A stretch of 35,443 nt of DNA from Caldisericia bacterium (GTDB lineage Bacteria > Caldisericota > Caldisericia > UBA6126 > JAGPKI01). This document shows, piece after piece, positions 9,679 to 35,443 of the stretch; positions within the stretch are counted from its first letter, which is position 1, and the number at the start of each line of letters is the position of its first letter. Both the position numbers and the translations under genes were made by a program. The DNA lies in assembly GCA_018054005.1 (NCBI GenBank), contig JAGPKI010000002.1, positions 1 through 35,443 on the forward strand. The letters run 5' to 3'. The notes under the pieces were generated by a model. It worked only from the letters and a program-made list of their open reading frames with translations, was not told the origin of the DNA and did no database searches.

Positions 9679-11538
9679 TTTCGATTTTTCACTTTTTTCT
9701 TTACTTTCTTGTTCTTCTCTTATTTTTAGTAATTCGAGATACTTATCAAGTTCTTCACCTTCAAGATTTTCTTTTTGTAAAAGTATATTTGACATATCTA
9801 TGATCTCTAATCTTTTAGCATTTATTATGTTCTTTGCCTCTTTATAAGCTTTTTCTATAACTTCATTTACTTCTGCGTCAATTAATTTACCGGTAGATTC
9901 ACTATAGTCTTTTTCCTGAACGAGGTCCTTCCCAAGAAATATTGGACCATGTTCTTTTCCAAAACTTCGAGGGCCTAATAAATTACTCATACCATACTTT
10001 GTTATCATATCATTCGCAAGTTTTGTTACCTGTTCAAGGTCATTTTCAGCTCCTGTTGTAATTTCACCTATTATAATTTCTTCGGCAGCTCTACCACCAA
10101 GAAGTGAACAAATTTTATGAAATAGCTCGTTTTTTGTCATTAAATATTTATCGTCGTAGGGTAGTTGTAAAGTATAGCCTAATGCCATACCTCTTGAAAC
10201 TATGGAAATTTTGTGTACTGGCTCAAGGTCTGGATAATTTATTATCACCGCAGCATGCCCTATTTCGTGTATTGCAATGATCTTTTTTTCTTTTTCATTT
10301 ACAACTCTTTTTTTCTCTGGTCCAGCAAGAACTCTATCAATTGCTTCTTCAATTTCACTCATTTCTATTTTTTTCTTGTTTCTTCTTGCTGTTAGTATTG
10401 CAGCTTCATTTAAAAGATTTTCAAGATCTGCTCCAGTAAAACCTGCTGTTCTCCTTGCAAGAACAGTAAAATCAACTTGTTCATCTATTGGTTTGTTTCG
10501 AGCATGTAATCTTAAGATTTCCTCTCTCTCTATTCTATCTGGCATATCCACAACGACATGTCTATCAAATCTTCCTGGACGCAGAAGTGCTGGATCAAGA
10601 ATGTCAGGTCTGTTTGTCGCTGCAATAACAATTATTCCAATTCGAGGATCATATCCATCCATTTCTACTAAGAGTTGATTTAGGGTTTGTTCTCGTTCAT
10701 CATGTCCTCCACCTAATCCAGCACCTCTATGTCTTCCAACAGCATCTATTTCATCAATAAAAATTAGAGAAGGAGCATACTTTTTAGCCTGCATAAATAA
10801 ATCTCTTACTCGTGAAGCTCCAACACCAACAAACATTTCAACAAATTCAGAACCAGAAACACTAAAGAATGGTACTTTTGCTTCTCCTGATATCGCCCTT
10901 GCAAGCAATGTTTTACCACATCCCGGAGGACCTACAAGAAGTACTCCTTTTGGTATCTTTGCTCCTATAGAAGTAAATTTTTTTGGTTCTTTTAGAAATT
11001 CTACAATTTCTATTAGTTCTTGTTTTGTTTCTTTTAATCCAGCAACATCCTTAAAACTGACTTTTGGTTTATCTTCCATAAAAAGTTTTGCGGTGGTTTT
11101 ACCAAAATTAAAGACTTGGTTTCCACCAGATGATTGCACAGCCCTGCTTAGCATATACCAAAAAAGACCTAAAATTAGTAATGTTGTTCCAATATTAATT
11201 ATTATTCCCCATAAATCAGAACTTGAAGACTGAATAAGCTGGGTTTGAACATTGTTTTCGGCAAGTTTTTCTGTAATTGAAGCTATTAATTCTGGATAAA
11301 TTGTTACAACATATTCGGAACCTTCTTTGAGTTTACCCGTAATTTTATTTCCATGTATCTCCGCAGTATTTATTTTTCCTTCATCAATATAGATAAGGTA
11401 TTCATTATATTTAAGCTGAATAGGGCTTGTGTTTCTACTTATATCAAAAACAAACGATACAATTATTCCTATAAGAATTAAAATAATCAGTGGAAGAAAA
11501 TTAATATTTGACTGTTTCTTTTTATTGTTTTCTGGCAT
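9631..11538 (-). CDS. ftsH: ATP-dependent zinc metalloprotease FtsH
   Basis: 635 aa with two N-terminal TM segments, Walker A GPPGCGKT, Walker [11 protein letters not shown] and zinc site HEIGHA. Part of the tilS-hpt-ftsH conserved cluster. Confidence 0.97.
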
Positions 11539-21033: not shown

Positions 21034-22317
21034 TCAAAATTTTCTGAGTCTTACCCAATCAAATGCTTCTATTGTATACTTTATAAATTCTCTAAGTTCT
21101 AAATAATTATTTTCTATTGAAGCGTTTAGAATGCTATTATAAAGAGATGTTTCTATATTAAAATTCCTGTATGCAGACTTATAAACATTTAGCAATTTGT
21201 CGAATATAAGTTCGAAATCTTCTATTCCAAATTTTCTCAAATCAATTCTATTTTTTATTGAAGGAGAAATTTTTATATCTTTTAGAGGAGTTGTTGCAAT
21301 TACAAGAAAAATATAGGGTTCTTTATAGGAGTAAGGAGTAGGACGAACTTGATTGTGAGCCATAGAGTAATTTATTTTTCGAAGTTTTTTATCATTAAGG
21401 GAAATCCCAATAAGTCCATTCATAAAGTTTAATCCACGCGTATAAAGTTCATTATTCCAGATATGAGTAATTTCTTCAAATTCATCAATAATTATTACTA
21501 AGCCGCTTAATTCTAATTGTCTAACAATATAACTTAAACCACTTATAATGTAGCAATAAAAATCGGCAGCTGTCGAAAAATCGTACAATGCTGGTATAGC
21601 TTGCCCTCCCTTTACACGATAAGGTGAAAACTTAGATGTAGCATACTCTTTAGTAGATTCTCCCTCAATCCATTGCCAGAAAACTTCACTTTTTGAATCA
21701 AGGTTATCCAGTTCCTTCACCCTATTTATAACAGGAGTAAAAAAGCAATGGTCATCAATTTTAAGTTTTGTTGCTTCAATTAAAATATCTCTGAAACTAT
21801 AATCATAGTTATCCCTAATAAAGTGTAAGTTGTAAACAAGCTCATGATACACCTTTTTAGGTCTGAAGGGTGGAGTTTCTTGAGCATGTAGTTCGCAATA
21901 AGTTGTGGCAAAACCTTCTTTCAAAGATAAATGCCGAAAATATTCTAAAAGGTGTGACTTTCCAGAACCATATCCTCCCTCAATCATACAAACATCACTT
22001 ATGCCGTTTCTTAAGTTTTCTAATCCATTCTTTAATAGATTAATTTCTGCTTCTCTGCCAAATGTAAATAGTTCTATATCTTGATGAGGAACAATTCCCA
22101 TTCTAAACGACTCAAGAATTCTTTTTGAAGAGATTTCATCTAAATTAATTTCAGAATCTTCTTTTACTTTAATTGGCTTTAACCATTTTGTAGGAAGCCA
22201 CAAATTTAATCCATTCAGAAATTTAACTCTTGCTTCAGTTCCATCCCAGCGTGTTTCAAGCACAACACCTTCACCAAATATGTTGTGGATGACAAGCTTA
22301 GAATTCTTCTCCTTCAA
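21034..22317 (-). CDS. BrxD/DUF2791-like P-loop ATPase with an N-terminal Tudor/SH3-like module (third gene of operon)
   Basis: 427 aa. Walker A GGYGSGKSH (21955-21978) and Walker B VIIIDE (21481-21498). The pre-P-loop segment RILESFRMGIVPHQDIELFTFGRE matches the pattern I recall for DUF2791/BrxD. Residues 1-50 (VIHNIFGEGVVLETRWDGTEARVKFLNG...) resemble the UvrD/PcrA C-terminal Tudor or DUF3553 motif. TTG start overlaps the upstream gene by 20 nt. Confidence 0.65.
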   Translation of the reverse strand: MKEKNSKLVIHNIFGEGVVLETRWDGTEARVKFLNGLNLWLPTKWLKPIKVKEDSEINLDEISSKRILESFRMGIVPHQDIELFTFGREAEINLLKNGLENLRNGISDVCMIEGGYGSGKSHLLEYFRHLSLKEGFATTYCELHAQETPPFRPKKVYHELVYNLHFIRDNYDYSFRDILIEATKLKIDDHCFFTPVINRVKELDNLDSKSEVFWQWIEGESTKEYATSKFSPYRVKGGQAIPALYDFSTAADFYCYIISGLSYIVRQLELSGLVIIIDEFEEITHIWNNELYTRGLNFMNGLIGISLNDKKLRKINYSMAHNQVRPTPYSYKEPYIFLVIATTPLKDIKISPSIKNRIDLRKFGIEDFELIFDKLLNVYKSAYRNFNIETSLYNSILNASIENNYLELREFIKYTIEAFDWVRLRKF

Positions 22318-23560
22318 CCTCTTCCCTCTCTTTTTGAATTAGTGATTTAGCAGTTGAACGGAATAACTCTCTTGCAGTTGATTTATCGATAGGTGTATTG
22401 TTTACTTTAATCCTTTGGAATGCCTCTATTACTGCGATAACAAATATTCTCCTGTAACTTACATCAAGAAACTGTGATTCAAGTGAAACATTAATTATGT
22501 TTCTCAAGGACTCTTCAAGGACTTTATTATTAAAATCATAAAAATATGCAATCTCATATATTTTTGCTAATTTTAGTCCCAATTCCTTTAAAAATTCAGA
22601 TGGAGAAATTCCTATATCTTCAAGATTAATTTTTACTCCCATAGGATTAACTTTGGTAAAACTTGAGCGAAGACGCTGATTTAAAGCTTCGTAAACACCG
22701 CCACTTCCTTCAAGAAGTAGATTTTCATCGGGTATTGCATAGAAAAACATAGCTCCTGGAAGTTTTGAGTTTCCGCATTCGTCTATTATTTGCCTTAAAT
22801 TATCTAAAGCTCTTCTTCTATCTCGAGATGAGGATATGCTCATTCCTCGTTCAGCTTCGTCAAATAAAAATATAATTCCTGAATAGCCAATCAAATTTAC
22901 AAATTGAACCAAACTTCTTAGCATTCTGAAGGCATTAGTTCTATCAATTCGCTCGGATATTCTATATTTATATTTAAGGTCTCTCGAGATATCTTCTCCT
23001 TTAAGCCATTGTGCAAGCGAATAAAAAAGCTCTTCATCATCGTTTGAGAGACCTGATAAAGCTCCTTTTGTAGCATTCACAAAACTAGTACTTTCAAGGT
23101 TTTTGATGAGGGATAAAAAATTCTTTTCTTCTTTTACCTGTTCATACCATTTCCTTAAAAGTGCTTCTATACCAACTTCCCAAGGTTTAAGTATTTCCGT
23201 TGTACTTAATGGTGGAGTAATATTTAAAGCGATGTTTCTATAAACTAATTCTAATCTATCAAACGGACACTCTGTTGCACTTAAGCTAACATAACTTGTT
23301 ACATAATTATTTTTCCAAGCGAGATCTCTTATCAGGTAAAGAAAATGAGATTTACCACCTCCATAATTACCAACAATTAACTTAAATGATGATAAGTTGT
23401 ATTTTAAAATATCATTTAAATATTCATTTTCAATAACATTTAAATAAGGTTCAAGCCCAACATTAAAATATTCAACTCCTACTTCTGGAGGTGTGCCTGA
23501 ACTACCCAGTTTATGGATTATTACTTTTGCAAGTTTAGGGTCTAAATCTAATTCATTCAT
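22298..23560 (-). CDS. BrxD/DUF2791-like P-loop ATPase, paralog of the downstream gene (second gene of operon)
   Basis: 420 aa. Walker A GNYGGGKSH (23348-23371) and Walker B IIFLFDEAE (22853-22876), followed by an Arg-rich SSSRDRRRALDNL segment. The N-terminal KVIIHKLGSSGTPPEVGVEYFNVGLE aligns with the equivalent segment of the 427-aa protein. Confidence 0.65.
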   Translation of the reverse strand: MNELDLDPKLAKVIIHKLGSSGTPPEVGVEYFNVGLEPYLNVIENEYLNDILKYNLSSFKLIVGNYGGGKSHFLYLIRDLAWKNNYVTSYVSLSATECPFDRLELVYRNIALNITPPLSTTEILKPWEVGIEALLRKWYEQVKEEKNFLSLIKNLESTSFVNATKGALSGLSNDDEELFYSLAQWLKGEDISRDLKYKYRISERIDRTNAFRMLRSLVQFVNLIGYSGIIFLFDEAERGMSISSSRDRRRALDNLRQIIDECGNSKLPGAMFFYAIPDENLLLEGSGGVYEALNQRLRSSFTKVNPMGVKINLEDIGISPSEFLKELGLKLAKIYEIAYFYDFNNKVLEESLRNIINVSLESQFLDVSYRRIFVIAVIEAFQRIKVNNTPIDKSTARELFRSTAKSLIQKEREEVEGEEF

Positions 23561-26215: not shown

Positions 26216-27595
26216 TTAATATTTAACCAGAAAAATATAGAAAAAAGAGCTGTTCCATAATATTCCAAAAGTAAATGCTACGAAGTTAGCTATTAATAAA
26301 GTGAGAAAAAAGAGCACATTTTCCAAACGGTTTACTACTTTTTTAAGCCAATAAATTATTTTTCTAAACCAGTAAATTATTTTACTTTCACTGGATAATA
26401 TTTCTCCTACATTAGAGTTATTGTGCGGGTTGATCTGAGAACCATTTTTTTGAAATGAGAAATAGAAAGGAAGAATATAAGTAATGGGTACAGCAACAGA
26501 CATCCAGAAAACAACATTTACTTCTATTTCATTCCTAACTGAATATAGAAAAGAAATAAAAGAATCTTTTTGGCAAAGATACAAAAATAAAGACATAAGA
26601 GCAACAAGCTGAAGAGGTACAACTATTTCTTTCTTTTTAAATATTAGCATTATAAGAAATGAAATAAGAATTATTGATAATGCAAATATCAGAAAATAGG
26701 ACGGTGGATTAGTTATAAATTTTGCGAAAATAAGTTCAAAATCAGTAAGTAAATGTTTTCCACTCAATTCGAAATATTTAGCATCAAAAAATAATCTTGA
26801 ATAAATTCCTAAAAGGAGTGTTACAAAAAAGGAAGGCATTAGAAGGCACAAATAAACTAATTTAAGAAAAGGCTCTATTGTTTTTGTACTGTTTCTAATA
26901 AATGAGACTGATACTGTAAGAATAAGTAAGAAAGTAGCAATATAGATAAAGAAGTAAAAAGGAGAAGTCATTATATTCTTAAAAAAGATAAAAAGAATGA
27001 GCTGGACCAGGAGAAGAAGGCATGCATAGTAAGAGGAATATTTACCAGCAAGTCTTGCCAATGCTCCGTTAGAATAGTTATTAAGCTCTGAAGTTATTAT
27101 ATTTTTTCTCCTTTTTACGCAAATCCAGCTCATGAGTATTAATAGCAAACAAATATCTACCAATATAACCCATACAGGTATTTTATTTAAGAAAAGCAGC
27201 ATATCCTCTGAAGAACCAGATATTTTCAAAGTTTCTATCATAGGAGTTAGTGCTATTCCGGAAAGAAATGAAGAATAAAACAGTAATGTAGACCAGAGAA
27301 AAAGACCTGTAACCAGTGAAAGAGTAAAAAAATCGGTGTTGTAATGTCTTGTATTTATTAAGTATGGTAGAAATCGAAAAATAATGAAAAATTCTATAAT
27401 ATGGCAAGAACCGATTAAGACAGATCTAAAAGCTGTATAACCCAGGGGGTATCTCGATAAATCAGATTGAAACAAGGAATAGTGACCATTAAAGTATAAA
27501 AAGGAAAATAGTGAGAAAAAAAATGAAATAAATAAGAGTAAAGGCAAACTCCTCATTATGATTATGTCTTCTGTTACTTTGTTATTATTTTCCAA
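26216..27595 (-). CDS. Polytopic integral membrane protein of unknown function (about 12 predicted TM by eye)
   Basis: 459-aa ORF that is almost entirely hydrophobic segments, with no soluble domain or catalytic motif recognised. Start is uncertain (TTG 27595 or ATG at the MRSLPLL position). Lies 104 nt downstream of direct-repeat copy 1. Confidence 0.7.
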   Translation of the reverse strand: MENNNKVTEDIIIMRSLPLLLFISFFFSLFSFLYFNGHYSLFQSDLSRYPLGYTAFRSVLIGSCHIIEFFIIFRFLPYLINTRHYNTDFFTLSLVTGLFLWSTLLFYSSFLSGIALTPMIETLKISGSSEDMLLFLNKIPVWVILVDICLLLILMSWICVKRRKNIITSELNNYSNGALARLAGKYSSYYACLLLLVQLILFIFFKNIMTSPFYFFIYIATFLLILTVSVSFIRNSTKTIEPFLKLVYLCLLMPSFFVTLLLGIYSRLFFDAKYFELSGKHLLTDFELIFAKFITNPPSYFLIFALSIILISFLIMLIFKKKEIVVPLQLVALMSLFLYLCQKDSFISFLYSVRNEIEVNVVFWMSVAVPITYILPFYFSFQKNGSQINPHNNSNVGEILSSESKIIYWFRKIIYWLKKVVNRLENVLFFLTLLIANFVAFTFGILWNSSFFYIFLVKY

Positions 27596-27698: not shown

Positions 27699-27825
27699 AC
27701 AGAAATTAGCATAAATCAAAGTGATAAATTTTAAAGTCTCATATGTTTCGTAACTTATTCATTAGTATTTATTGTCTATTACATTATTTTTGATAAATAT
27801 CATCGTTAGTTATATCGGGAATTTA
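27699..27825. repeat. Direct repeat copy 1 (127 bp, identical to 35317-35443)
   Basis: Base-by-base comparison shows 127/127 identity with the last 127 nt of the window. Identity breaks at 27698 versus 35316. The far end is undetermined because copy 2 is cut by the window end. Confidence 0.95.
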
Positions 27826-27851
27826 GGTTAATATTTCCAGTACTAAAATCG

Positions 27852-28067
27852 CTAATAGTGCATTGAAGATAGAGAGTAAGAAAGCCAAAAACAAATTGCT
27901 TCCTTCACATTCTTTATAATTGGTATATTTCTATAACTTGCAGGAATAGGAATTTCAGGAAATATCACTGGCAGTAATAATTTAGTATTTGGGCGACTAA
28001 TCTTTTTAAAAACTAAAGATAATAATGGAAGGATAGAAATAATTGAAGCAATCACAAGGAGAAGCAA
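27852..28067 (-). CDS. Small hydrophobic hypothetical ORF (possibly a gene fragment)
   Basis: 71-aa TTG-initiated ORF. The same frame is stop-free up to about 28183. One TM-like segment (LLLLVIASIISILPLLSLVF); no RBS or family recognised. Confidence 0.25.
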   Translation of the reverse strand: MLLLVIASIISILPLLSLVFKKISRPNTKLLLPVIFPEIPIPASYRNIPIIKNVKEAICFWLSYSLSSMHY

Positions 28068-28213
28068 TCCTATCTTTCCGAAGATATAAACATGAACTGA
28101 TAATGAAGGTAAAATATAGCCATCCGAAGCATGTTTATAAAATTTTAACTGTATACTTCCAAATAGTATATGATGATGTTCTTAATATTAGGCCTCCACC
28201 AAAATAATATATT

Positions 28214-28419: not shown

Positions 28420-29748
28420 TTAAACGAAGAATATAGCCCTTAATGTATTTAATAAGTTTAAAATGAACAGGAAAGAAAAATATTTCTTTTTTGAATATTT
28501 AGACGGATTGAAAAAGAAGTCAAGCTTGTCAGTCTTTTTCAGAAAAAAAGTTACTACTTTATCCACAACGTAAAAAGTTATTAGAATAACAAAACCACCC
28601 ATCAAACACCATAATAATAAGATTGGTAGTCTATTCATAACTATTGAAGTAGCCATATTGTCAACACTTATCGTATAAGATTGAAAAAATGTCAAAATCT
28701 TACTTATATATAAATTATTGGAAGCAAAGAGTAAGACGGAGATCTGTTGTAGAATTGAGCATAGAAAAACCCAAAATAGACTATTGCTTTTGTGCTTGAA
28801 AAGCAAATAGCTTAAAGTAATAACTATTAAAGATAGTGTGTAACCTATATAAGGTCTGTAGAGTTTAAATAAAGGTTCAACTTTGAAATTAAAAGGAGTA
28901 ACAAAAAGATTAAATCCTCTTGAAAGGGCATATGGAGTAAAGACAAATAGTAGAAGTAATAGAACAACAAATATTGAGTGTTTCTTTATATCTATTTCAC
29001 CCAATGAGTGGTTTTGGTTAGAATTTAAATCCTCATTATCTAAAAGATAAAATTTAAAAAATAAATATAATAGGAAAATCCCGAAAGAGTAATATAGCAA
29101 TATTATGGTTCTTAAAAGATTATTGGAAACTTTATTAATTAATTCATAGAAAAGATATGGCATCAAAACAAGAAAAATTATAGATATAATTAGAAATGGA
29201 ATACCAAATCCATTGATTATAAATGGGTCATTAAAAAGTAATGGTCTTATATTTTCAGAAGAGTAGCTACTTTTTGTTTCATTTGTTATTTCTATTTTTC
29301 TCTCCTTGCTCCACCAATTTTGAATTTTTAAGTAAAAAGCAAAAATAACTATTAAACACACGGAAAAAATTATAGAAAGATAGATTCCAAGATTAATAGG
29401 AGGTTTTAATAAGTCTTTTTCCCATTTGAAAAGAGTAGAAATATTTAAAAATAGGATATAAAATAAAATCAGAAGCGTTGGAGAACTAAGAGAGAATTTA
29501 ATACTTTTCAGATCGGATAATATTTGCCATATGAAATTCAAAAAGGATGTTGCAGTAAGTCCTAAACCTACAATTGCCAAAATAACTAATAATATTATTG
29601 CTTCAGTAGAGAAAGTTGAATAGGGAGTAAATATTTTAAAAATCAGGTTAACTGTTATTACCCCGAACACACCAATGAAAATAGTTAAAAAAGTTATAAG
29701 TAAAGATGTACCTCTAATTTTCTCTTTACTAATACTAAGGGATTTCAT
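28420..29748 (-). CDS. Polytopic integral membrane protein translationally coupled to the Rhs toxin gene (candidate immunity protein)
   Basis: ATG at 29748-29746 overlaps the Rhs TGA (29747-29745) as ATGA, giving MKSLSISKEK..., 442 aa with about 12 hydrophobic segments. The ORF-track start at 29805 lies inside the Rhs gene. Confidence 0.7.
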   Translation of the reverse strand: MKSLSISKEKIRGTSLLITFLTIFIGVFGVITVNLIFKIFTPYSTFSTEAIILLVILAIVGLGLTATSFLNFIWQILSDLKSIKFSLSSPTLLILFYILFLNISTLFKWEKDLLKPPINLGIYLSIIFSVCLIVIFAFYLKIQNWWSKERKIEITNETKSSYSSENIRPLLFNDPFIINGFGIPFLIISIIFLVLMPYLFYELINKVSNNLLRTIILLYYSFGIFLLYLFFKFYLLDNEDLNSNQNHSLGEIDIKKHSIFVVLLLLLFVFTPYALSRGFNLFVTPFNFKVEPLFKLYRPYIGYTLSLIVITLSYLLFKHKSNSLFWVFLCSILQQISVLLFASNNLYISKILTFFQSYTISVDNMATSIVMNRLPILLLWCLMGGFVILITFYVVDKVVTFFLKKTDKLDFFFNPSKYSKKKYFSFLFILNLLNTLRAIFFV

Positions 29749-32700
29749 TTTCCACAATTTCCGCCACTGGGATTTTCTAAATAAGTTGGAACAGTTTGTG
29801 CCCATAAATCTTTAAGTCTACTATCGTATTTTTCAGATTTTTGGAAAGCTTTTTTAACATTGGTGATGTTTTCGCCAATTTTCGAGCAATCATTACTCCA
29901 CTGTTGTGGATGACACATACCCCAAAAATTATAATTTATATAAATCTGTGACTCTCGAGAACTATATACACAGGATAAACTAGTGAATTTTCCAGTTGAA
30001 TCTTGTCCGTTCATTTCGAGAAGTTTTTTACAAATTTTTTGGCATGTGCTAACTACATTATCCATCGCTTCTATATGAGAAGTTGATTGAGAATTGAAAT
30101 AGCCATATATGCTATATGCGCAAGCTATTAATGATGCTAATCCTATAGCTATGCCTGCAGCAACAGCTGAGACAGCAATACCTAAAACGGAAATAGTACC
30201 ACCGCCCCCTACTAAAGCTGTATAAAGTCCTGCAATAGCAGATCCACAACTAACAGCTATTCCTGTAATATCACTCCAACGGAATGAGGAGCCTTTTGCT
30301 GTAGCTAAATTTGATAGCATTTTAGATATTAAGTCGTTCATTTCGCAATTAAGAGTACAACACTTCTCCTTAGACACTAAACCCATTGGATCGATTTTAT
30401 TTACGGGGTCATTTTTGCAGTAGTGGTAAGAATGAATAGTCCACGGATCAGACAAAATCCCTGGACCCCAGATATCCGCTGTTAAAAACCTACATGTGGT
30501 AGAATCATACATTCTTGTTCCCATAGAATACATTTCATCTACTGGTGGAGATTCATATGAGATTGGGGTTGGTTCATAATAGCTTCCAGCAAACTTAAGA
30601 GGATTATAAGAAATTCCTTCACTGTGCTCTATAGTTCCGTAAGGATAATATCCATTTTTTGCCTTAAGTGGCTCATTTAGCAATGGATCATCTGTAGTTC
30701 CAACTACAGAACCAATATAATCATTGTAAAAAAGTTCACTATAAAGTCCTTCACCCGATATACCAGGAATAGGATTTACCTGCATAAGAATCGGAGCTGT
30801 TGCATAGTAAGTGTAATTTAATAGTAAATTATCAGTTGGATCATTTGTGTCCCCTTCTCTAAATTCGCTAATTAGATGTTCACCTTCATAATAGAAAGAT
30901 CTATCACCCATACCTATTCTTCTACCCTCTACATCGTAAGCGATATCTGTAAAATCAATAATATTACCCGCTTGGTCATAAACTTTTATATTTTTTGGAA
31001 AATTTAAAGGACTATACTCTATATGTATTTCATTTTGAAGTTCTCCGTTTGGTGCAAAGTTTTTAATCTTTGTTGGACCGAGCATAGCGTTAATGTCGGG
31101 GTATTCAGGAAGATTATAGAAATATTCTGAAGTTGAAGAGTCAGGATTAGTTACTTCTGTTACTCTATTCATTTCATCATATTCGTAGTGATATGCATAA
31201 GTACCAGTTGGATCTGTAAGAGTTTTTCTTGTCATATTACCACCTATATCATATTCATAGGTGCAGACTTTGTCTCCACGGTAAGCTTTAGTTAACTGTC
31301 CATATGTATCATATTCGTAAAACCATCGAGTATCACTTGTTATTCTATGCATTGAATCATAGGTATATTCATAGTTCATTTCAGGATGCTTAGGATTGGT
31401 TATTTTCTTTAATCTTCCAATCTCATCATATTCATAAGTTGTATTTGTGCTTACTCTTTTTGTTAAAAGATGATCTTTATCATATTCAAAAGTTTCGACT
31501 ACACCGAAAGGAAGCGGTTGATTATTTTTATCAAAGTATTTTTCTTCAATTTTTGTTACATTAAAACATTCATCGACAGTATAATGAATAGATCTTCCAC
31601 TATAATTATATAATTCAGATGTTGCATCATCCGGTTTTATAAAATAATCGATAGGAAGTTCATCTGGATCATAACCATCCAATGTTTCAACAGAAAATTT
31701 ATTCCCGCCTGTTACTTTTCTTTCTAATTTATCACTTAGATTATAGTGATATTCAATGTTTCCAGCTTTTGTTGTTCGTCCTGATTTATCGTATTTATAT
31801 TCTATCCTTGTACCATCCCAAAATTCAATATAATCTAAAAGTCCTTCATTGAGATATCGCATCTTGTTTATCCTTCCGTAAGCATCTTTCATCTCTTTTG
31901 GGTATCTTTCTCTGCCAGGTTCTGTTTCATAAGTATATTCGCGTACGATATTTCCATAATAATCAATTACTTTTGATGTTCTTTCATTTTCATCATAGAT
32001 TATACTAAATTGTGGTCTCCCTCTCTCGTCAATTAAGCTTGAAAGCTTCCCTTCTAAAGTATAATTATACCCTACTCTTTTTCCGTTCCAATCAATTTCT
32101 AGCATTCTGCTATATCTATCATATTTATATTTTGTTTCTGTCCCGTCAGGATTTATTAGTTTTGTAAGATTACCATTTGCATCGTATTCATAGTTGGTTT
32201 CTCCGTAAAAATCTTCCGTTTTTGATATTTTACCACAGCATTGAGAAAATGTTATTTCGTTCCATTTTCCTTCCGGTGAACTAATTTTTACACTTGTCCC
32301 TGACGGATATTCAATGCTGAATTCACTATTACATGCATCACTAATACTAATTAAGTTATTTTGAGCATCATATATTAATTTCATCTTTCTTCCAGCCGGA
32401 GTTATTATTTCTTTAGTCTTTGGAAAAGAATCATCTTCTAAATTGTAAGTAATATTAGTTATATTTCCGTTATTGTTTATACTAATTAAATTTCCATTGA
32501 AGTCGTAAATTACAGTACTTTGCGAAATAGCTGGGGTTATCATTGAGAATTGAGTCTGAATTATTTCTCCTGTTTCTGGGTCAAGCAAAATTGTTCTTGT
32601 AGTCGTGTATTCTCCGTTAACATAATCTTTTAAGTAATTTGGGAAGTTATGGTCAATATAGCTTATAATCGTGTAAAGCTCTGGATTTTCTGCCATTCCA

Positions 32701-35101
32701 ATAATATTATTGCTTGAATCATATGAATAGATTAAAACATCTGCAGATGAAGGATAAATTGTTCTTTCTTCAGTTAAAATTCCATCTTCTCTGAAATGAA
32801 CCTGATTTTTTATGTTGTTTTCATTTATTACTTCTGTATAATTTGAGTAATAGTTATATATCTCACTTAGGCCTGTCTCATCGTGTGAATTTAAGCACTT
32901 TCCATTCTGAGCACAATCATAATACCATATTGAACCTCTTGGGTCAGTAACAGAAAAGACATTATCATTTTCATCCCAGCCAAAAGTCATAGAAAAGCCT
33001 TTACTTGAGAAGATTTGGGTAAGTTTATCTTGAGAATAAGTATAATTTACTGAACCGTCTGGATATGTTATACTTTCTACTTTTCCTGTTACATCATAAT
33101 TTATAGTAGTTGTGCTTCCATTTGGATTTGTTATAGTTGTAATTCTATCAAAACCAAAGATATTTGACCAGCCAAACTGAGTTTTGTATCCTTTACTTTT
33201 GGTTTCTAATAGCCTTCCATCAAGGGAGAATTTAGTTATATTAAAATAACCCTCAGTTAATTGAAATACTCCACCAATATCCTTAATAGTCATTAAGCTG
33301 TTAGATTCAGCAATGTAGATATTTTCTGCTTGGTCATAAATAAAGTTAAAGATAGCTCCTGTTGGGTCTTTAAATTTAATATGGTCATTTAGAACAATGT
33401 CAAAAAGAGAAGATTCAAGTAGGCTTATCCTCTTCTTACCAAACCATCCAGTATCTTCTGACCTGCTATTATATAAAGAGGTTATAGTTGCATTTGCAAA
33501 TGTAGTTTTTGTGGGGTAAGGGGTGTATTCAACCTGTTCAATTATCAAATTTCCATTTCTTAAGTTTGCACTTACATCAAATACAGTTGATGGAGGATTA
33601 AAGAATGTTTCATGTTCAGAGAAGCCAAGCTTACTTTGATCACCTATTATTTCAGTATAAATTACTGTAAGAACTGTTTGACAAGTTCCTCTACTACTTT
33701 CAAATTTCATAGGAATTGGGTTTTCAGAACTATTTGGAATTCTTTCGATTAAAGCTAATCCATTATTTGAAATTGGGTCTGTAAGCCAGCCTTCAATTAG
33801 TGAATTTGGTAGAGTTACAATTGGGCTAAATCCTGATTCCCCTAAATTTGTTAAATTAATAAATCCCTGTATTGATCCAAGAGTAGGTGGAGGAATAAAT
33901 AGAGGCCCTTCTGGCCATGAAGAAGTAACATTATAAATGTCAGTAATGGGTGAAGGATTATTCCCTTTTTCTATTGGGCATAGTGAAAGAGTTGCTGAAT
34001 TTATTTCAATGTTATCTGGTAGAGTTGGTAGCTCAAACCTCATAAGAGATGTAAAAGTAGTAATAGATGAATCTATAATTTCTTTACCAACGAGAAGGTT
34101 TTCATTATAATACTTATTTCCTGCTTCATCAATGTATAAATCCTCTTCTGGTATAACTTCAAATGAAGGGTCAAGTATTACAGGATACTCCGTCTTAGTA
34201 TTTTCTAAGAATTCTTTATCAAGTCTTAACTTCAGCTGAACTTTATCTCCTTTTTCAGATAAAGTAGAGGTAAGAGCTATATTCCTGCCTTCCTTTCCTG
34301 CTTTATCTTTTAGGTTTATTTTTCCTACTTTTAGACTAAATTTCTCCTTCTTAAAAATAAATTTAGCTTCATCTTTTCCAGAGAATGAAACATTTTTAAG
34401 TCTAATATCAAAATTAATTTCACTAAGGATAGGTTTACTCTTAAATATTATCTCCTCCTTAATATTAAAAGAGGAAACTGTGTATTTTAAATCTATTCCA
34501 GAAGCTATATCCTTAAAAATAACAGAATTGCCATCAAAATCTGGTAAAGTAGGTTTAATCCCCTCCATATTAAGCTTAAGTTGAGAGTCTCCTTTAAGGA
34601 GAGAAAATATTAGATTTGACCCTTTCTTTACATCATCATTGCCAGTAAAGAATATCTTAAAGAAAGATGTATCAGAATAATAGCTATAATTAGGAATATT
34701 AGATTTCTTAATTTCAGGCTTTATCCCAATAAGACCTCTTCCACTAATAAAGGTATTAATTGGTTTAGTGTATACTTTGAGAGTATATTTATTTCCATCT
34801 TTTATTGTATTAGAAAATGAAGTCTTTTTGTAAGTTACATCATTGGAAATCTCAGTTTGTGATAAAAGTTGATTTAATCCTTGACGCTGATTTTTTGAAA
34901 GCAGATAAGCTTTGTAATTTCCACTCTCTTTAAGTGAAGAAGCAACTTTTTCATAGGGACTAAAGACAATTAAGAGAAGAATACATAAAAGAGTGACAAG
35001 AAGTCTTGATTTTAAAGGATGATTAGAAGAACTTGAGAGATTTAATTCCGTTCTCTCTCTCTCTCTGCTTGTGAAACTTTGAATCTTTTAAATGAATACA
35101 T
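29745..35101 (-). CDS. WapA-like Rhs/YD-repeat polymorphic toxin; the 5' end (RBS+ATG at 35101) is out of frame with the body at an (AG)7 tract
   Basis: The body ORF 29745-34568 (1607 aa) has many YD repeats (YEYDANGNLTKL, YKYDRYSRMLEI, YEYDEIGRLKKI, YTYDSMHRITS; about 30378-33161). It has a DNRLRE-like N-terminal domain (LMRFELPTLPDNIEINSATLSL) and the Rhs core end motif DPVNKIDPMGL (30378-30392), followed by a 210-aa C-terminal tip. The same frame stays open to 35087 with a signal-anchor-like KSRLLVTLLCILLLIVFSP but no start codon. GAGGAGG, 8 nt, then ATG at 35101 is in a different frame. Confidence 0.85.
35053..35066. repeat. Dinucleotide simple-sequence repeat (CT)7 on plus strand = (AG)7 in the Rhs 5' coding region
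   Basis: Read directly from the sequence: ccg tt ctctctctctctct gctt. Confidence 0.95.
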
Positions 35102-35316
35102 TTTTAAAACCTCCTCATATTTTAATTTTTTTGCCAAAAAACTTTTTCTAAGTAATTTGTGGGAGGATATACTGCATTCTATTTAAACACTTTTCAAGTT
35201 TAGGATCTAATTCAAAAATCTATAGAGAAATTAAAATAATAATTTTAGGAAAGTCAAGTTTTTTTATCTAAAGAGTTTTGTATTTGTAAAAATTCATACA
35301 AGACTTTGAAAGGCAA

Positions 35317-35443
35317 ACAGAAATTAGCATAAATCAAAGTGATAAATTTTAAAGTCTCATATGTTTCGTAACTTATTCATTAGTATTTATTGTCTATTAC
35401 ATTATTTTTGATAAATATCATCGTTAGTTATATCGGGAATTTA
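35317..35443. repeat. Direct repeat copy 2 (identical to 27699-27825), truncated by the window end
   Basis: 127/127 identity with copy 1. Lies 216 nt upstream of the Rhs ATG on the minus strand. Confidence 0.95.

What the first reader, a model, noticed from the sequence alone, without database searches (positions are those of the whole stretch)
35042..35116. (AG)7 dinucleotide tract separates a strong RBS+ATG from the ~1,780-codon Rhs frame: candidate slipped-strand phase switch, currently in the OFF register
On the minus strand, GAGGAGG (35116-35110) is followed after 8 nt by ATG (35101-35099). That frame reads MYSFKRFKVSQAERERERN and stops at TAA (35044-35042), right after an (AG)7 tract (35066-35053). 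The long Rhs frame is stop-free from 35087 to 29745. This leaves 173 open codons upstream of its first ATG (34568) in very AT-rich DNA. I found no ATG, GTG or TTG among those codons, and they encode a signal-anchor-like KSRLLVTLLCILLLIVFSP. Deleting one AG unit, or adding two, fuses the ATG to this frame. The result would be MYSFKRFKVSQAERERERTELNLSSSSNHPLKSRLLVTLLCILLLIVFSPYEKV..., about 1,784 aa. Short-repeat frame switches in the 5' coding region are the classic contingency-locus mechanism. I am not aware of it being a recognised control mode for Rhs/WapA-type toxins.
Basis: seen in the sequence. Interest (0 to 1): 0.8.

Follow-up and report, generated by a model that had tools for sequence, protein, structure and literature searches.

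The report
Repeat-tract frame switch heading an Rhs toxin
A short AG repeat between the start codon and the export signal of a large bacterial toxin gene keeps the gene out of frame; the repeat varies in length between wild strains, and the same start module on a neighbouring gene occurs both in and out of frame, so it looks like a mutational on/off switch, though no "on" toxin copy was found.

Summary
On the minus strand, GAGGAGG, 8 nt and ATG open a 19-codon frame. This frame crosses (AG)7 (35066-35053) and stops. The 1,780-codon Rhs frame runs alongside it with no start codon for 173 codons.

- **Upstream codons are real coding sequence.** They align at 48% identity, signal peptide included, with an intact relative (P0002). 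That relative has an ordinary start and no repeat.
- **The tract is not an assembly error.** I read it in 22 other public contigs from several assemblers: 19 have (AG)7 and 3 have (AG)8. It is the only indel in 6.75 kb compared across 18 of them.
- **Both lengths are out of frame.** Only n = 6 or 9 would be in frame, and no in-frame Rhs allele was found.
- **The 5' module is shared.** The same promoter, SD, ATG and (AG)n head a second secreted-protein gene (L027, (AG)5, also out of frame). Public proteins of that gene are mostly truncated calls. Two (P0239, P0240) read in frame through an RE-repeat.

The best reading is a slipped-strand contingency switch of the H. pylori oipA or Neisseria opa type, here on an Rhs toxin in an uncultivated Caldisericia bacterium. 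A frameshift-inactivated, decaying gene remains a serious rival. The 7.6-kb cassette is also gained, lost and amplified through 473-bp flanking repeats.

The parts
35228..35257 (-). Promoter-like block TTGACTTTCCTAAAATTATTATTTTAATTT. Its function is inferred, not shown.
   Evidence: Most of the block (TTGACTTTCCTAAAATTATT, then TTTTAAT) is conserved between the window-type upstream region and the otherwise diverged L005 upstream region. The consensus sigma-70 scan did not call it.
35110..35116 (-). Shine-Dalgarno sequence GAGGAGG, 8 nt upstream of the leader ATG.
   Evidence: It is identical in every locus that contains it.
35042..35101 (-). Leader frame from ATG 35101-35099 to TAA 35044-35042. 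It encodes 19 codons, MYSFKRFKVSQAERERERN.
35053..35066 (-). (AG)7 tract, the frame-setting simple sequence repeat.
   Evidence: The tract has 7 units in 19 other contigs and 8 units in 3. It is the only indel in the 6.75-kb alignment.
34569..35087 (-). 173 open codons of the Rhs frame with no ATG, GTG or TTG. They encode the signal peptide and the start of the conserved N-terminal domain.
   Evidence: They align with the N-terminus of P0002 at 48% identity and 52% identity over 570 residues.
34962..35003 (-). Hydrophobic core of the signal peptide (LLVTLLCILLLIVF). It is preceded by K-S-R and followed by SPYEKVASS.
   Evidence: Hydropathy profile. It aligns with the P0002 signal peptide LLSIIISILVLILLIPVNDALA.
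29745..34568 (-). The Rhs ORF as publicly annotated (1,607 aa, from the internal ATG). It contains the DNRLRE-like region, the YD repeats, the RHS-associated core, and a C-terminal domain of about 200 aa.
   Evidence: It is 100% identical to P0001 (HXK70667.1, Caldisericia bacterium).
29748..30377 (-). C-terminal domain following NDPVNKIDPMGL. It has a glycine- and alanine-rich hydrophobic stretch and is a putative membrane-acting toxin domain.
   Evidence: The sequence is shown. No family matched. The function is inferred.
28420..29748 (-). A 442-aa polytopic membrane protein gene. Its ATG overlaps the Rhs stop (ATGA). It is a putative immunity gene.
   Evidence: Of its 5 SNPs, 4 are synonymous, giving pN/pS of about 0.07. 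No family matched.
27699..28171 (-). Downstream copy of the 473-bp direct repeat that flanks the 7.6-kb cassette. It contains a 67/71-aa ORF at 27852-28067.
35317..35443 (-). Upstream copy of the same direct repeat, cut by the end of the window.
   Evidence: 127 nt, 100% identical. The full 473-nt copy is seen in L001.

Best explanation
The (AG)n tract is a slippage-prone simple sequence repeat. It sits in the part of the gene that encodes the charged n-region of the signal peptide of a Sec-exported Rhs (YD-repeat) toxin.

**How the switch would work**
- Transcription and a strong SD-ATG are constant.
- The number of AG units decides whether ribosomes starting at ATG 35101 read on into the signal peptide and the 1,766-codon toxin body (n = 6 or 9, ON), or stop after 19 codons (n = 7) or 26 codons (n = 8) (OFF).
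- In the OFF state no exportable toxin can be made, because the toxin frame has no start codon for 173 codons.
- The window is in the (AG)7 OFF state.

**Shown**
- The anatomy of the locus.
- The homology of the start-less codons to an intact relative.
- The natural 7/8 length polymorphism.
- The presence of the same 5' module on a second gene.
- The existence of in-frame and out-of-frame products of that second gene.

**Inferred**
- That slippage at the Rhs tract is reversible.
- That slippage is frequent enough to create ON subpopulations.
- That switching is selected for.

The tract belongs to a portable 5' module made of promoter, SD, ATG and (AG)n. A second layer of variation acts on the same locus: the 7.6-kb Rhs-immunity cassette is lost, kept or amplified by recombination between 473-bp flanking repeats.
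For: **Anatomy**
- The anatomy is verified.
- The tract is far beyond chance: 0.01 matches expected.

**The upstream codons are coding sequence**
- P0002 is an intact 1,750-aa relative with GGAGG, 7 nt and ATG, and no repeat.
- It aligns from its signal peptide onward with the start-less codons.

**The tract is real and variable**
- It was read in 22 other contigs from JGI, ENA, NCBI and Logan, assembled with SPAdes-type and MEGAHIT-type assemblers. Nineteen have (AG)7 and 3 have (AG)8, and the flanks are identical in all of them.
- It is the only indel in 6.75 kb aligned across the window and 18 of those contigs (L001-L018), against 27 SNP columns.

**Signs that the gene is still maintained**
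- The 5.3-kb ORF is intact in all copies but one.
- The Rhs body has pN/pS of 0.33, binomial p = 0.02.
- The overlapping immunity-like gene has pN/pS of 0.07.

**The module is shared with a second gene (gene B)**
- L027 carries the identical promoter, SD, ATG and leader, then (AG)5 and a different secreted beta-propeller-like gene, which is also out of frame.
- Most public products of gene B are 328-aa calls that start at an internal Met.
- P0239 (..KRFKVFTRERERENSF..) and P0240 (..KFLQERERENSF..) read in frame from the leader through an RE-repeat into the signal peptide.
- A distant homologue of gene B (P0219) has an ordinary signal peptide without the repeat.
Against: - No in-frame Rhs allele was found. 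All 23 copies read directly are out of frame.
- Every further contig carrying the 1,607-aa proteins or the 442-aa neighbour shows a 1,607-aa call or a call cut by a contig end.
- (AG)7 is shared by several SNP haplotype groups, and (AG)8 is confined to one group. This points to a modest slippage rate: roughly one length change per 27 substitutions in 6.75 kb.
- pN/pS for the whole Rhs frame is 0.46, not significantly below 1 (p = 0.07).
- All 4 changes in the 173 upstream codons are non-synonymous.
- One contig (L018, 5x coverage) has a nonsense codon.
- Some strains lack the cassette altogether (L032 and L034).
- The DNA of the two in-frame gene B alleles could not be fetched. Back-translation suggests that at least P0240 owes its frame to a 1-nt change in a T/A run of the leader rather than to the AG tract.
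- The contigs are not independent. There are 9 haplotypes, and many contigs come from related samples.
Confidence: 0.58

Rival explanations
1. This is a frameshift-inactivated gene on its way to decay. The AG tract is only a mutational hot spot where the inactivating slip happened. The gene has been off in the whole sampled species since then. The 7-to-8 change is neutral drift in a dead leader. No reversible, selected switching takes place.
For: - All 23 Rhs copies read directly are out of frame, and no 1,784-aa product is on record.
- All 4 changes in the upstream 173 codons are non-synonymous.
- The overall pN/pS of 0.46 is not significantly below 1.
- One allele carries a nonsense codon.
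- The tract length is stable across haplotype groups.
- The cassette is dispensable, as shown by the empty-site contigs L032 and L034.
Against: - The 5.3-kb ORF has no indel and no stop in all copies but one, across 9 haplotypes.
- The body pN/pS of 0.33 (p = 0.02) indicates some purifying selection.
- The same repeat-bearing start module heads a second gene. That gene is likewise mostly out of frame yet intact, and in-frame alleles of it exist in two lineages.
- Parallel decay of two genes at the same engineered-looking site is less likely than a switch.
Confidence: 0.28
2. Recoding at the RNA level or during translation. RNA polymerase realigns on the (AG)n/(CT)n hybrid, or ribosomes shift on the tract. 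A fraction of products from the out-of-frame alleles would then be in frame. The 'OFF' alleles that dominate everywhere would really be low-level ON, which would explain why the ORFs stay intact.
For: - Out-of-frame alleles dominate at both genes while the long ORFs stay open.
- A perfect dinucleotide repeat longer than the 9-bp RNA-DNA hybrid could realign by 2 nt without a mismatch. This is inference from established knowledge of slippage at homopolymers.
Against: - (AG)7 needs a net -1 or +2 shift, while (AG)8 needs +1 or -2. One ribosomal frameshift mechanism cannot serve both.
- No X XXY YYZ slippery heptamer lies between 35087 and 35044.
- To my knowledge, productive transcriptional slippage in bacteria is documented for A or T runs, not for dinucleotide repeats.
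- No data here bear on RNA.
Confidence: 0.07
3. This is an assembly or sequencing artefact. The true tract would be in frame and invariant.
For: Dinucleotide repeats can stutter in PCR-based libraries. The window is a metagenomic contig.
Against: - The same (AG)7 appears in 19 other contigs from different projects and assemblers.
- (AG)8 appears in three contigs from three samples that share a SNP haplotype group.
Confidence: 0.01

Closest known systems
Helicobacter pylori oipA (hopH) and related outer-membrane protein genes (sabA, hopZ), which carry CT dinucleotide repeats in the 5' signal-sequence coding region
   Same: - A dinucleotide repeat lies just after the start codon, inside the signal-peptide coding part of a surface or secreted protein gene.
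- The unit number sets the frame on or off by slipped-strand mispairing (abstract of PMC10564699).
- AG on the coding strand here is CT on the other strand.
   Different: - The organism is an environmental, uncultivated Caldisericia bacterium rather than a host-adapted pathogen.
- The target is an Rhs toxin rather than an adhesin or porin.
- In H. pylori, on and off alleles are both common among strains. Here no 'on' Rhs allele has been seen, and the tract length looks fairly stable.
Neisseria opa gene family, with CTCTT pentamer repeats in the signal-peptide coding region of about 11 paralogues (from my own knowledge)
   Same: - A common repeat-bearing 5' leader is shared by several genes of one genome.
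- Each gene is switched independently.
- Most copies are off at any time.
   Different: - The repeat unit is a pentamer rather than a dinucleotide.
- The opa genes are paralogues of each other. Here the shared module heads two unrelated genes (an Rhs toxin and a beta-propeller-like protein).
- Switching rates are measured for opa and unknown here.
Sec-exported Rhs/YD-repeat toxins of the WapA type (Bacillus subtilis WapA-WapI), part of the polymorphic toxin systems (PMC3482391)
   Same: - An N-terminal signal peptide.
- A YD-repeat shell.
- An RHS-associated core ending in DPxGL.
- A variable C-terminal domain.
- A small-family gene immediately downstream that may confer immunity.
   Different: - No repeat-tract frame switch is described for these toxins. 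I found none in the held literature.
- The C-terminal domain and the 442-aa membrane partner match no family.
- Toxicity and immunity are untested.
Rescue of frameshifted genes by transcriptional slippage at poly(A) tracts in insect endosymbionts (from my own knowledge)
   Same: Out-of-frame alleles with intact ORFs persist in all sampled populations.
   Different: - The known cases involve homopolymers, not a dinucleotide repeat.
- No RNA evidence is available here.

Membership tests
Rhs / YD-repeat polymorphic toxin | Multiple YD (RHS) repeats forming the shell | tested here: met
   Pfam RHS_repeat matched at E = 4.9e-39 in 5 stretches. TIGR01643 YD_repeat_2x matched at E = 9.3e-30.
Rhs / YD-repeat polymorphic toxin | An RHS-associated core domain ending in the PxxxxDPxGL cleavage motif, which separates the shell from the C-terminal domain | tested here: met
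   TIGR03696 Rhs_assc_core scored 54.2 bits against a cut-off of 32.5, at residues 1480-1570. The sequence reads ...KNDPVNKIDPMGL....
Rhs / YD-repeat polymorphic toxin | A variable C-terminal toxin domain with a cognate immunity gene immediately downstream | tested here: inconclusive
   - A C-terminal domain of about 200 aa with a Gly/Ala-rich hydrophobic stretch is present. A 442-aa membrane protein gene overlaps the stop codon (ATGA).
- Neither matches any Pfam or NCBIfam family.
- Activity is untested.
Rhs / YD-repeat polymorphic toxin | An N-terminal trafficking element (a signal peptide for the WapA type; PAAR or VgrG-binding for the T6SS type) | tested here: met
   - A signal peptide is encoded in the start-less codons: K-S-R, a 14-residue hydrophobic core, then VASS.
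- It is homologous to the signal peptide of P0002.
- It is usable only if the frame is restored.
Simple-sequence-repeat contingency locus (slipped-strand phase variation) | A repeat tract in the promoter or 5' coding region whose unit number sets expression or reading frame | tested here: met
   (AG)7 begins 35 nt after the ATG. The gene is in frame only when n is a multiple of 3.
Simple-sequence-repeat contingency locus (slipped-strand phase variation) | Tract length is polymorphic among closely related strains while the flanks are conserved | tested here: met
   - The tract has 7 units in the window and 19 other contigs, and 8 units in 3 contigs.
- The flanks are identical, and this is the only indel in 6.75 kb.
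Simple-sequence-repeat contingency locus (slipped-strand phase variation) | Both in-frame (ON) and out-of-frame (OFF) alleles of the gene occur in nature | tested here: not met
   - For the Rhs gene, all copies seen are OFF.
- Caveat: 4 of the 19 cluster members were not listed, and both collection-wide DNA scans returned nothing.
- For the sister gene with the same module, both states are on record at the protein level.
Simple-sequence-repeat contingency locus (slipped-strand phase variation) | A high, reversible switching rate that gives mixed tract lengths within one population | not testable with these tools
   - Reads are not available.
- Indirect evidence: tract length tracks the SNP haplotype group, which argues against very fast switching.

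The most novel reading that the evidence does not exclude
The out-of-frame alleles that dominate every sampled population, at both genes carrying this module, may not be silent. RNA polymerase could realign on the (AG)n tract and produce a steady minority of in-frame mRNAs. The repeat would then act as a dinucleotide transcriptional-slippage recoding signal that sets a low expression level for costly secreted proteins. That would explain why 5-kb ORFs stay intact behind a frameshift.
Probability: 0.07. Interest if true: 0.8.

Novelty: new member of a known kind. Interest (0 to 1): 0.5.

Why it matters
Slipped-strand contingency loci are known almost entirely from host-adapted pathogens, and from adhesins, LPS or capsule enzymes and restriction-modification genes.

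If confirmed, this case would extend them in three directions:
- to an uncultivated environmental phylum (Caldisericota);
- to an Rhs interbacterial toxin;
- to a portable start module (promoter, SD, ATG and repeat) attached to unrelated secreted-protein genes in a recombining cassette array.

Stochastic on/off expression of a toxin, combined with constant selection on its immunity partner, would bear on how costly antagonism is deployed within clonal populations.

There is also a practical annotation lesson. Public records call this protein from an internal ATG (1,607 aa). That call misses 177 N-terminal residues, including the export signal.

Tried and rejected
**Searches that returned nothing**
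- Two scans of metagenome contigs returned 0 hits: one with a gapped pattern spanning the tract, and one with an exact 36-mer.
- Two scans of genome contigs also returned 0 hits: one with the N-terminal protein alignment, and one with a 35-mer of the leader.
- These collections evidently do not hold the contigs that carry this locus, so no extra alleles came from them.

**A negative that turned out to be uninformative**
- A word-indexed protein search with the fused N-terminus found nothing, not even P0002.
- That search also sees only cluster representatives, so its negative result is weak.

**Dead ends**
- All short members of the Rhs protein cluster are 3' fragments and say nothing about the tract.
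- The 459-aa ORF downstream (26216-27595) is not a paralogue of the 442-aa membrane protein.
- The sigma-70 consensus scan gave no more promoter hits than shuffled sequence.

**Readings rejected**
- The lack of start codons in 173 codons is not a designed feature (P about 0.03).
- Ribosomal frameshifting is unlikely: there is no slippery heptamer, and the 7-unit and 8-unit alleles need opposite shifts.
- Initiation at the ATT at 35084 is unlikely, because it lies 25 nt from the SD.
- A functional product from the internal ATG at 34568 is unlikely. No SD precedes it, and the product would lack the signal peptide and part of the conserved N-terminal domain.

**Not done**
- I did not run an exact look-up of hypothetical ON-state 1,784-aa sequences. 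Any SNP would make it miss.
Full report
**1. The observation**

Reading the minus strand confirms each coordinate:
- GAGGAGG lies at 35116-35110, followed by 8 nt and ATG at 35101-35099.
- The frame from that ATG reads MYSFKRFKVSQAERERERN and stops at TAA 35044-35042.
- (AG)7 lies at 35066-35053.

The long frame is open from 35087 to the TGA at 29747-29745. Its first ATG, GTG or TTG is at 34568. That leaves 173 start-less codons.

Removing one AG unit gives a single 1,784-aa ORF. Adding two units gives 1,786 aa. In general the gene is in frame when n is a multiple of 3.

The tract is the only dinucleotide run of 6 or more units in the window. Shuffled sequence gives an expected 0.01 matches.

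The start-free stretch itself is unremarkable. P is about 0.03, and an equally long run occurs in the gene body.

**2. What the gene is**

The frame encodes an Rhs/YD-repeat protein:
- RHS_repeat matches at E = 4.9e-39.
- YD_repeat_2x matches.
- Rhs_assc_core matches at residues 1480-1570.
- A DNRLRE-like region scores just under its cut-off.

The core ends in NDPVNKIDPMGL. A domain of about 200 aa follows, with a Gly/Ala-rich hydrophobic stretch and no family match.

A 442-aa polytopic membrane protein gene overlaps the stop codon (ATGA at 29748). It also has no family match.

The ORF is 100% identical to HXK70667.1, annotated as a 1,607-aa protein of a Caldisericia bacterium MAG. The rest of the window is ordinary chromosome, including nusA-infB-rbfA, ftsH, ruvAC and thrS.

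**3. The start-less codons are real coding sequence**

The only close relative is P0002 (1,750 aa, 47-52% identity). It has a normal GGAGG, 7 nt and ATG, and no repeat.

Its N-terminus is MDLRVIHISSCLRNRLLSIIISILVLILLIPVNDALA|TYRNSGSYKAY.. It aligns with the window's ..NHPLKSRLLVTLLCILLLIVFSPYEKVASSLKESGNYKAY.. and onward.

The hydrophobic core is 14 residues long. This makes it a cleavable signal peptide rather than an anchor.

The tract therefore lies in the n-region coding part of a signal peptide. Extra Glu-Arg pairs should be tolerated there.

**4. The tract in other assemblies**

Exact look-ups of the proteins in the cluster gave 18 contigs containing the whole cassette. Look-ups of the two neighbouring proteins added four more contigs that contain the tract (L023, which is the same contig as L001, plus L026, L030 and L031).

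- Besides the window, 19 distinct contigs have (AG)7.
- Three contigs (L005, L006 and L007, from three samples) have (AG)8.
- The flanks are identical in all of them.

The contigs come from JGI, ENA, NCBI and Logan, and from SPAdes-style and MEGAHIT-style assemblies. An assembly or polishing error is therefore excluded.

Across 6.75 kb aligned in 19 sequences (the window and L001-L018), the tract is the only indel, against 27 SNP columns.

Both 7 and 8 units are out of frame. With 8 units the leader frame stops after 26 codons.

No 1,784- or 1,786-aa product appears in the protein collection:
- All full-length cluster members listed are 1,607 aa, and one is 1,499 aa because of a nonsense codon.
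- Every gene upstream of the 442-aa protein is 1,607 aa or is cut by a contig end.

Two caveats apply. Four of the 19 cluster members were not listed. The contigs also reduce to 9 haplotypes, many from related samples.

**5. Selection**

| Region | Non-synonymous | Synonymous | pN/pS | Binomial p |
|---|---|---|---|---|
| Whole Rhs frame | 14 (one nonsense, L018, 5x coverage) | 8 | 0.46 | 0.07 |
| 173 upstream codons | 4 | 0 | n/a | n/a |
| Rhs body only | 10 | 8 | 0.33 | 0.02 |
| 442-aa gene | 1 | 4 | 0.07 | 0.009 |

The partner gene is clearly maintained. The toxin gene is under weak constraint at best.

(AG)8 is confined to one haplotype group, while (AG)7 spans the others. Four-gamete conflicts are widespread among the SNPs, so recombination or mixed consensus blurs the genealogy.

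On its face this means about one tract change per 27 substitutions in 6.75 kb. That is elevated per site, but it is not the rapid flux typical of classical contingency loci.

**6. A second gene with the same start module**

Looking up the 67-aa ORF that lies inside the flanking repeat returned L027. Its layout is:
- the same intergenic region, promoter-like block, GAGGAGG and ATGTATTCATTTAAAAGATTCAAAGTTT;
- then TTACAAGC(AG)5AAC;
- then a different long ORF, here called gene B, which encodes a signal peptide and beta-propeller-like repeats.

In L027 the leader ATG frame stops after 18 codons and the long ORF is in the +1 frame. It is out of frame again, and n = 6 or 9 would restore it.

Public products of gene B are mostly 328-aa calls from an internal Met, found on more than 50 contigs. 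Two are longer and read in frame from the leader through a translated repeat into the signal peptide:
- P0239: MRRFKNVFLKRFKVFTRERERENSFSSH..
- P0240: MYSLKDSKFLQERERENSFGSH..

They belong to two clusters that are about 88% identical to each other. The repeat is read as RERERE in one and ERERE in the other.

Back-translation, which is inference because the DNA could not be fetched, suggests two routes to the in-frame state:
- P0239 is in frame through the tract length.
- P0240 is in frame through a 1-nt change in a T/A run of the leader.

A distant homologue (P0219) has an ordinary signal peptide. So the repeat-bearing module is a lineage-specific, shared 5' element, and at the sister gene both states exist in nature.

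**7. Cassette dynamics (noticed in passing)**

The Rhs gene, the 442-aa gene and the 67-aa ORF form a 7,618-nt unit flanked by 473-bp identical direct repeats. Different contigs show different states of this unit (unless stated):
- Two MEGAHIT contigs close on themselves, with terminal overlaps of 141 and 108 nt.
- L030, L031 and L033 join the 3' flank of the 442-aa gene through one repeat to the Rhs promoter. This indicates a tandem copy or a circle.
- L032 and L034 show the empty site.
- L027 places gene B after the cassette.
- L005 places the Rhs gene behind glmU-prs, with a diverged copy of the promoter region.

This explains why most contigs are about 7 kb and why the window ends inside the repeat.

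**8. Interpretation**

The anatomy, the natural length polymorphism, the shared module and the in-frame/out-of-frame pair at the sister gene all fit a slipped-strand contingency switch. This is the type known from H. pylori oipA (PMC10564699) and, from my own knowledge, from Neisseria opa. I give this reading 0.58.

The main rival is a frameshift-inactivated gene decaying slowly (0.28). It is supported by the total absence of in-frame Rhs alleles, the weak constraint and the dispensable cassette.

RNA-level or ribosomal recoding is possible but unsupported (0.07). The 7-unit and 8-unit alleles would need opposite shifts, and there is no slippery heptamer.

An artefact is excluded for practical purposes.

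**9. Novelty**

The mechanism is a known kind. Its application to an Rhs toxin, in an environmental uncultivated phylum, through a module shared by unrelated genes, is new as far as the held literature shows. Searches linking Rhs or polymorphic toxins to repeat-mediated phase variation found nothing relevant.

I rate it a new member of a known kind, with interest 0.5. It would rise if read-level data show n = 6 or 9 subpopulations, and fall if the tract proves fixed.

Noticed in passing
window 27699-28171 and 35317-35443; L001 1727-2198 and 9344-9816: The Rhs gene, the 442-aa gene and the 67-aa ORF form a 7,618-nt unit flanked by 473-bp identical direct repeats. The window ends inside the upstream copy, which explains the contig break.
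   Followed up: yes
L008, L012, L030, L031, L033 (tandem or circular junction); L032, L034 (empty site): - Two contigs close on themselves, with 141-nt and 108-nt terminal overlaps and a 7,618-nt unit.
- Three short contigs join the 3' flank of the 442-aa gene through one repeat to the Rhs promoter.
- Two contigs show the site without the cassette.
- The cassette is therefore absent, single, or tandem/circular in different populations.
   Followed up: partly
L027 568-1991: A second gene (a secreted beta-propeller-like protein) carries the identical promoter, SD, ATG and leader with (AG)5 and is out of frame. Public proteins P0239 and P0240 are in-frame versions. More than 50 contigs carry the 328-aa internal-start call.
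   Followed up: partly
L005 1-2465: In one 28.9-kb contig the Rhs gene, with (AG)8, follows glmU-prs. The upstream region diverges 99 nt before the ATG but keeps the TTGACTTTCCTAAAATTATT block. This is either a second genomic context or a chimeric assembly path through the shared module.
   Followed up: partly
L018, equivalent to window about 30071 (Rhs codon 1673): One low-coverage contig (5x) has GAA changed to TAA in the C-terminal domain. This splits the gene into 1,499-aa and 106-aa calls.
   Followed up: partly
window 29745-29748: The 442-aa membrane protein gene starts at an ATGA overlap with the Rhs stop, which suggests translational coupling. If so, an out-of-frame toxin gene could also lower expression of the putative immunity gene. 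Even so, that gene shows strong purifying selection (pN/pS 0.07).
   Followed up: partly
window 21034-23560: Two adjacent genes both match the BREX BrxC/BrxD ATPase family (E = 3.9e-25 and 5.4e-46). A 297-aa ORF with no family match lies next to them. This may be a defence-related cluster beside the toxin cassette.
   Followed up: no
L019-L022 (locus of P0002): The intact relative of the Rhs gene in another lineage sits directly beside two transposase genes (DDE_5 and rve). It is followed by a 203/238-aa gene instead of the 442-aa membrane protein.
   Followed up: no
window 29745-34568: Public annotation (HXK70667.1 and all JGI/ENA gene calls) starts this protein at the internal ATG. It therefore omits 177 N-terminal residues, including the signal peptide.
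   Followed up: yes
window 10522-10531: (CT)5 lies inside the ftsH gene and is the only other dinucleotide run of 5 units. It is in frame and unremarkable.
   Followed up: no
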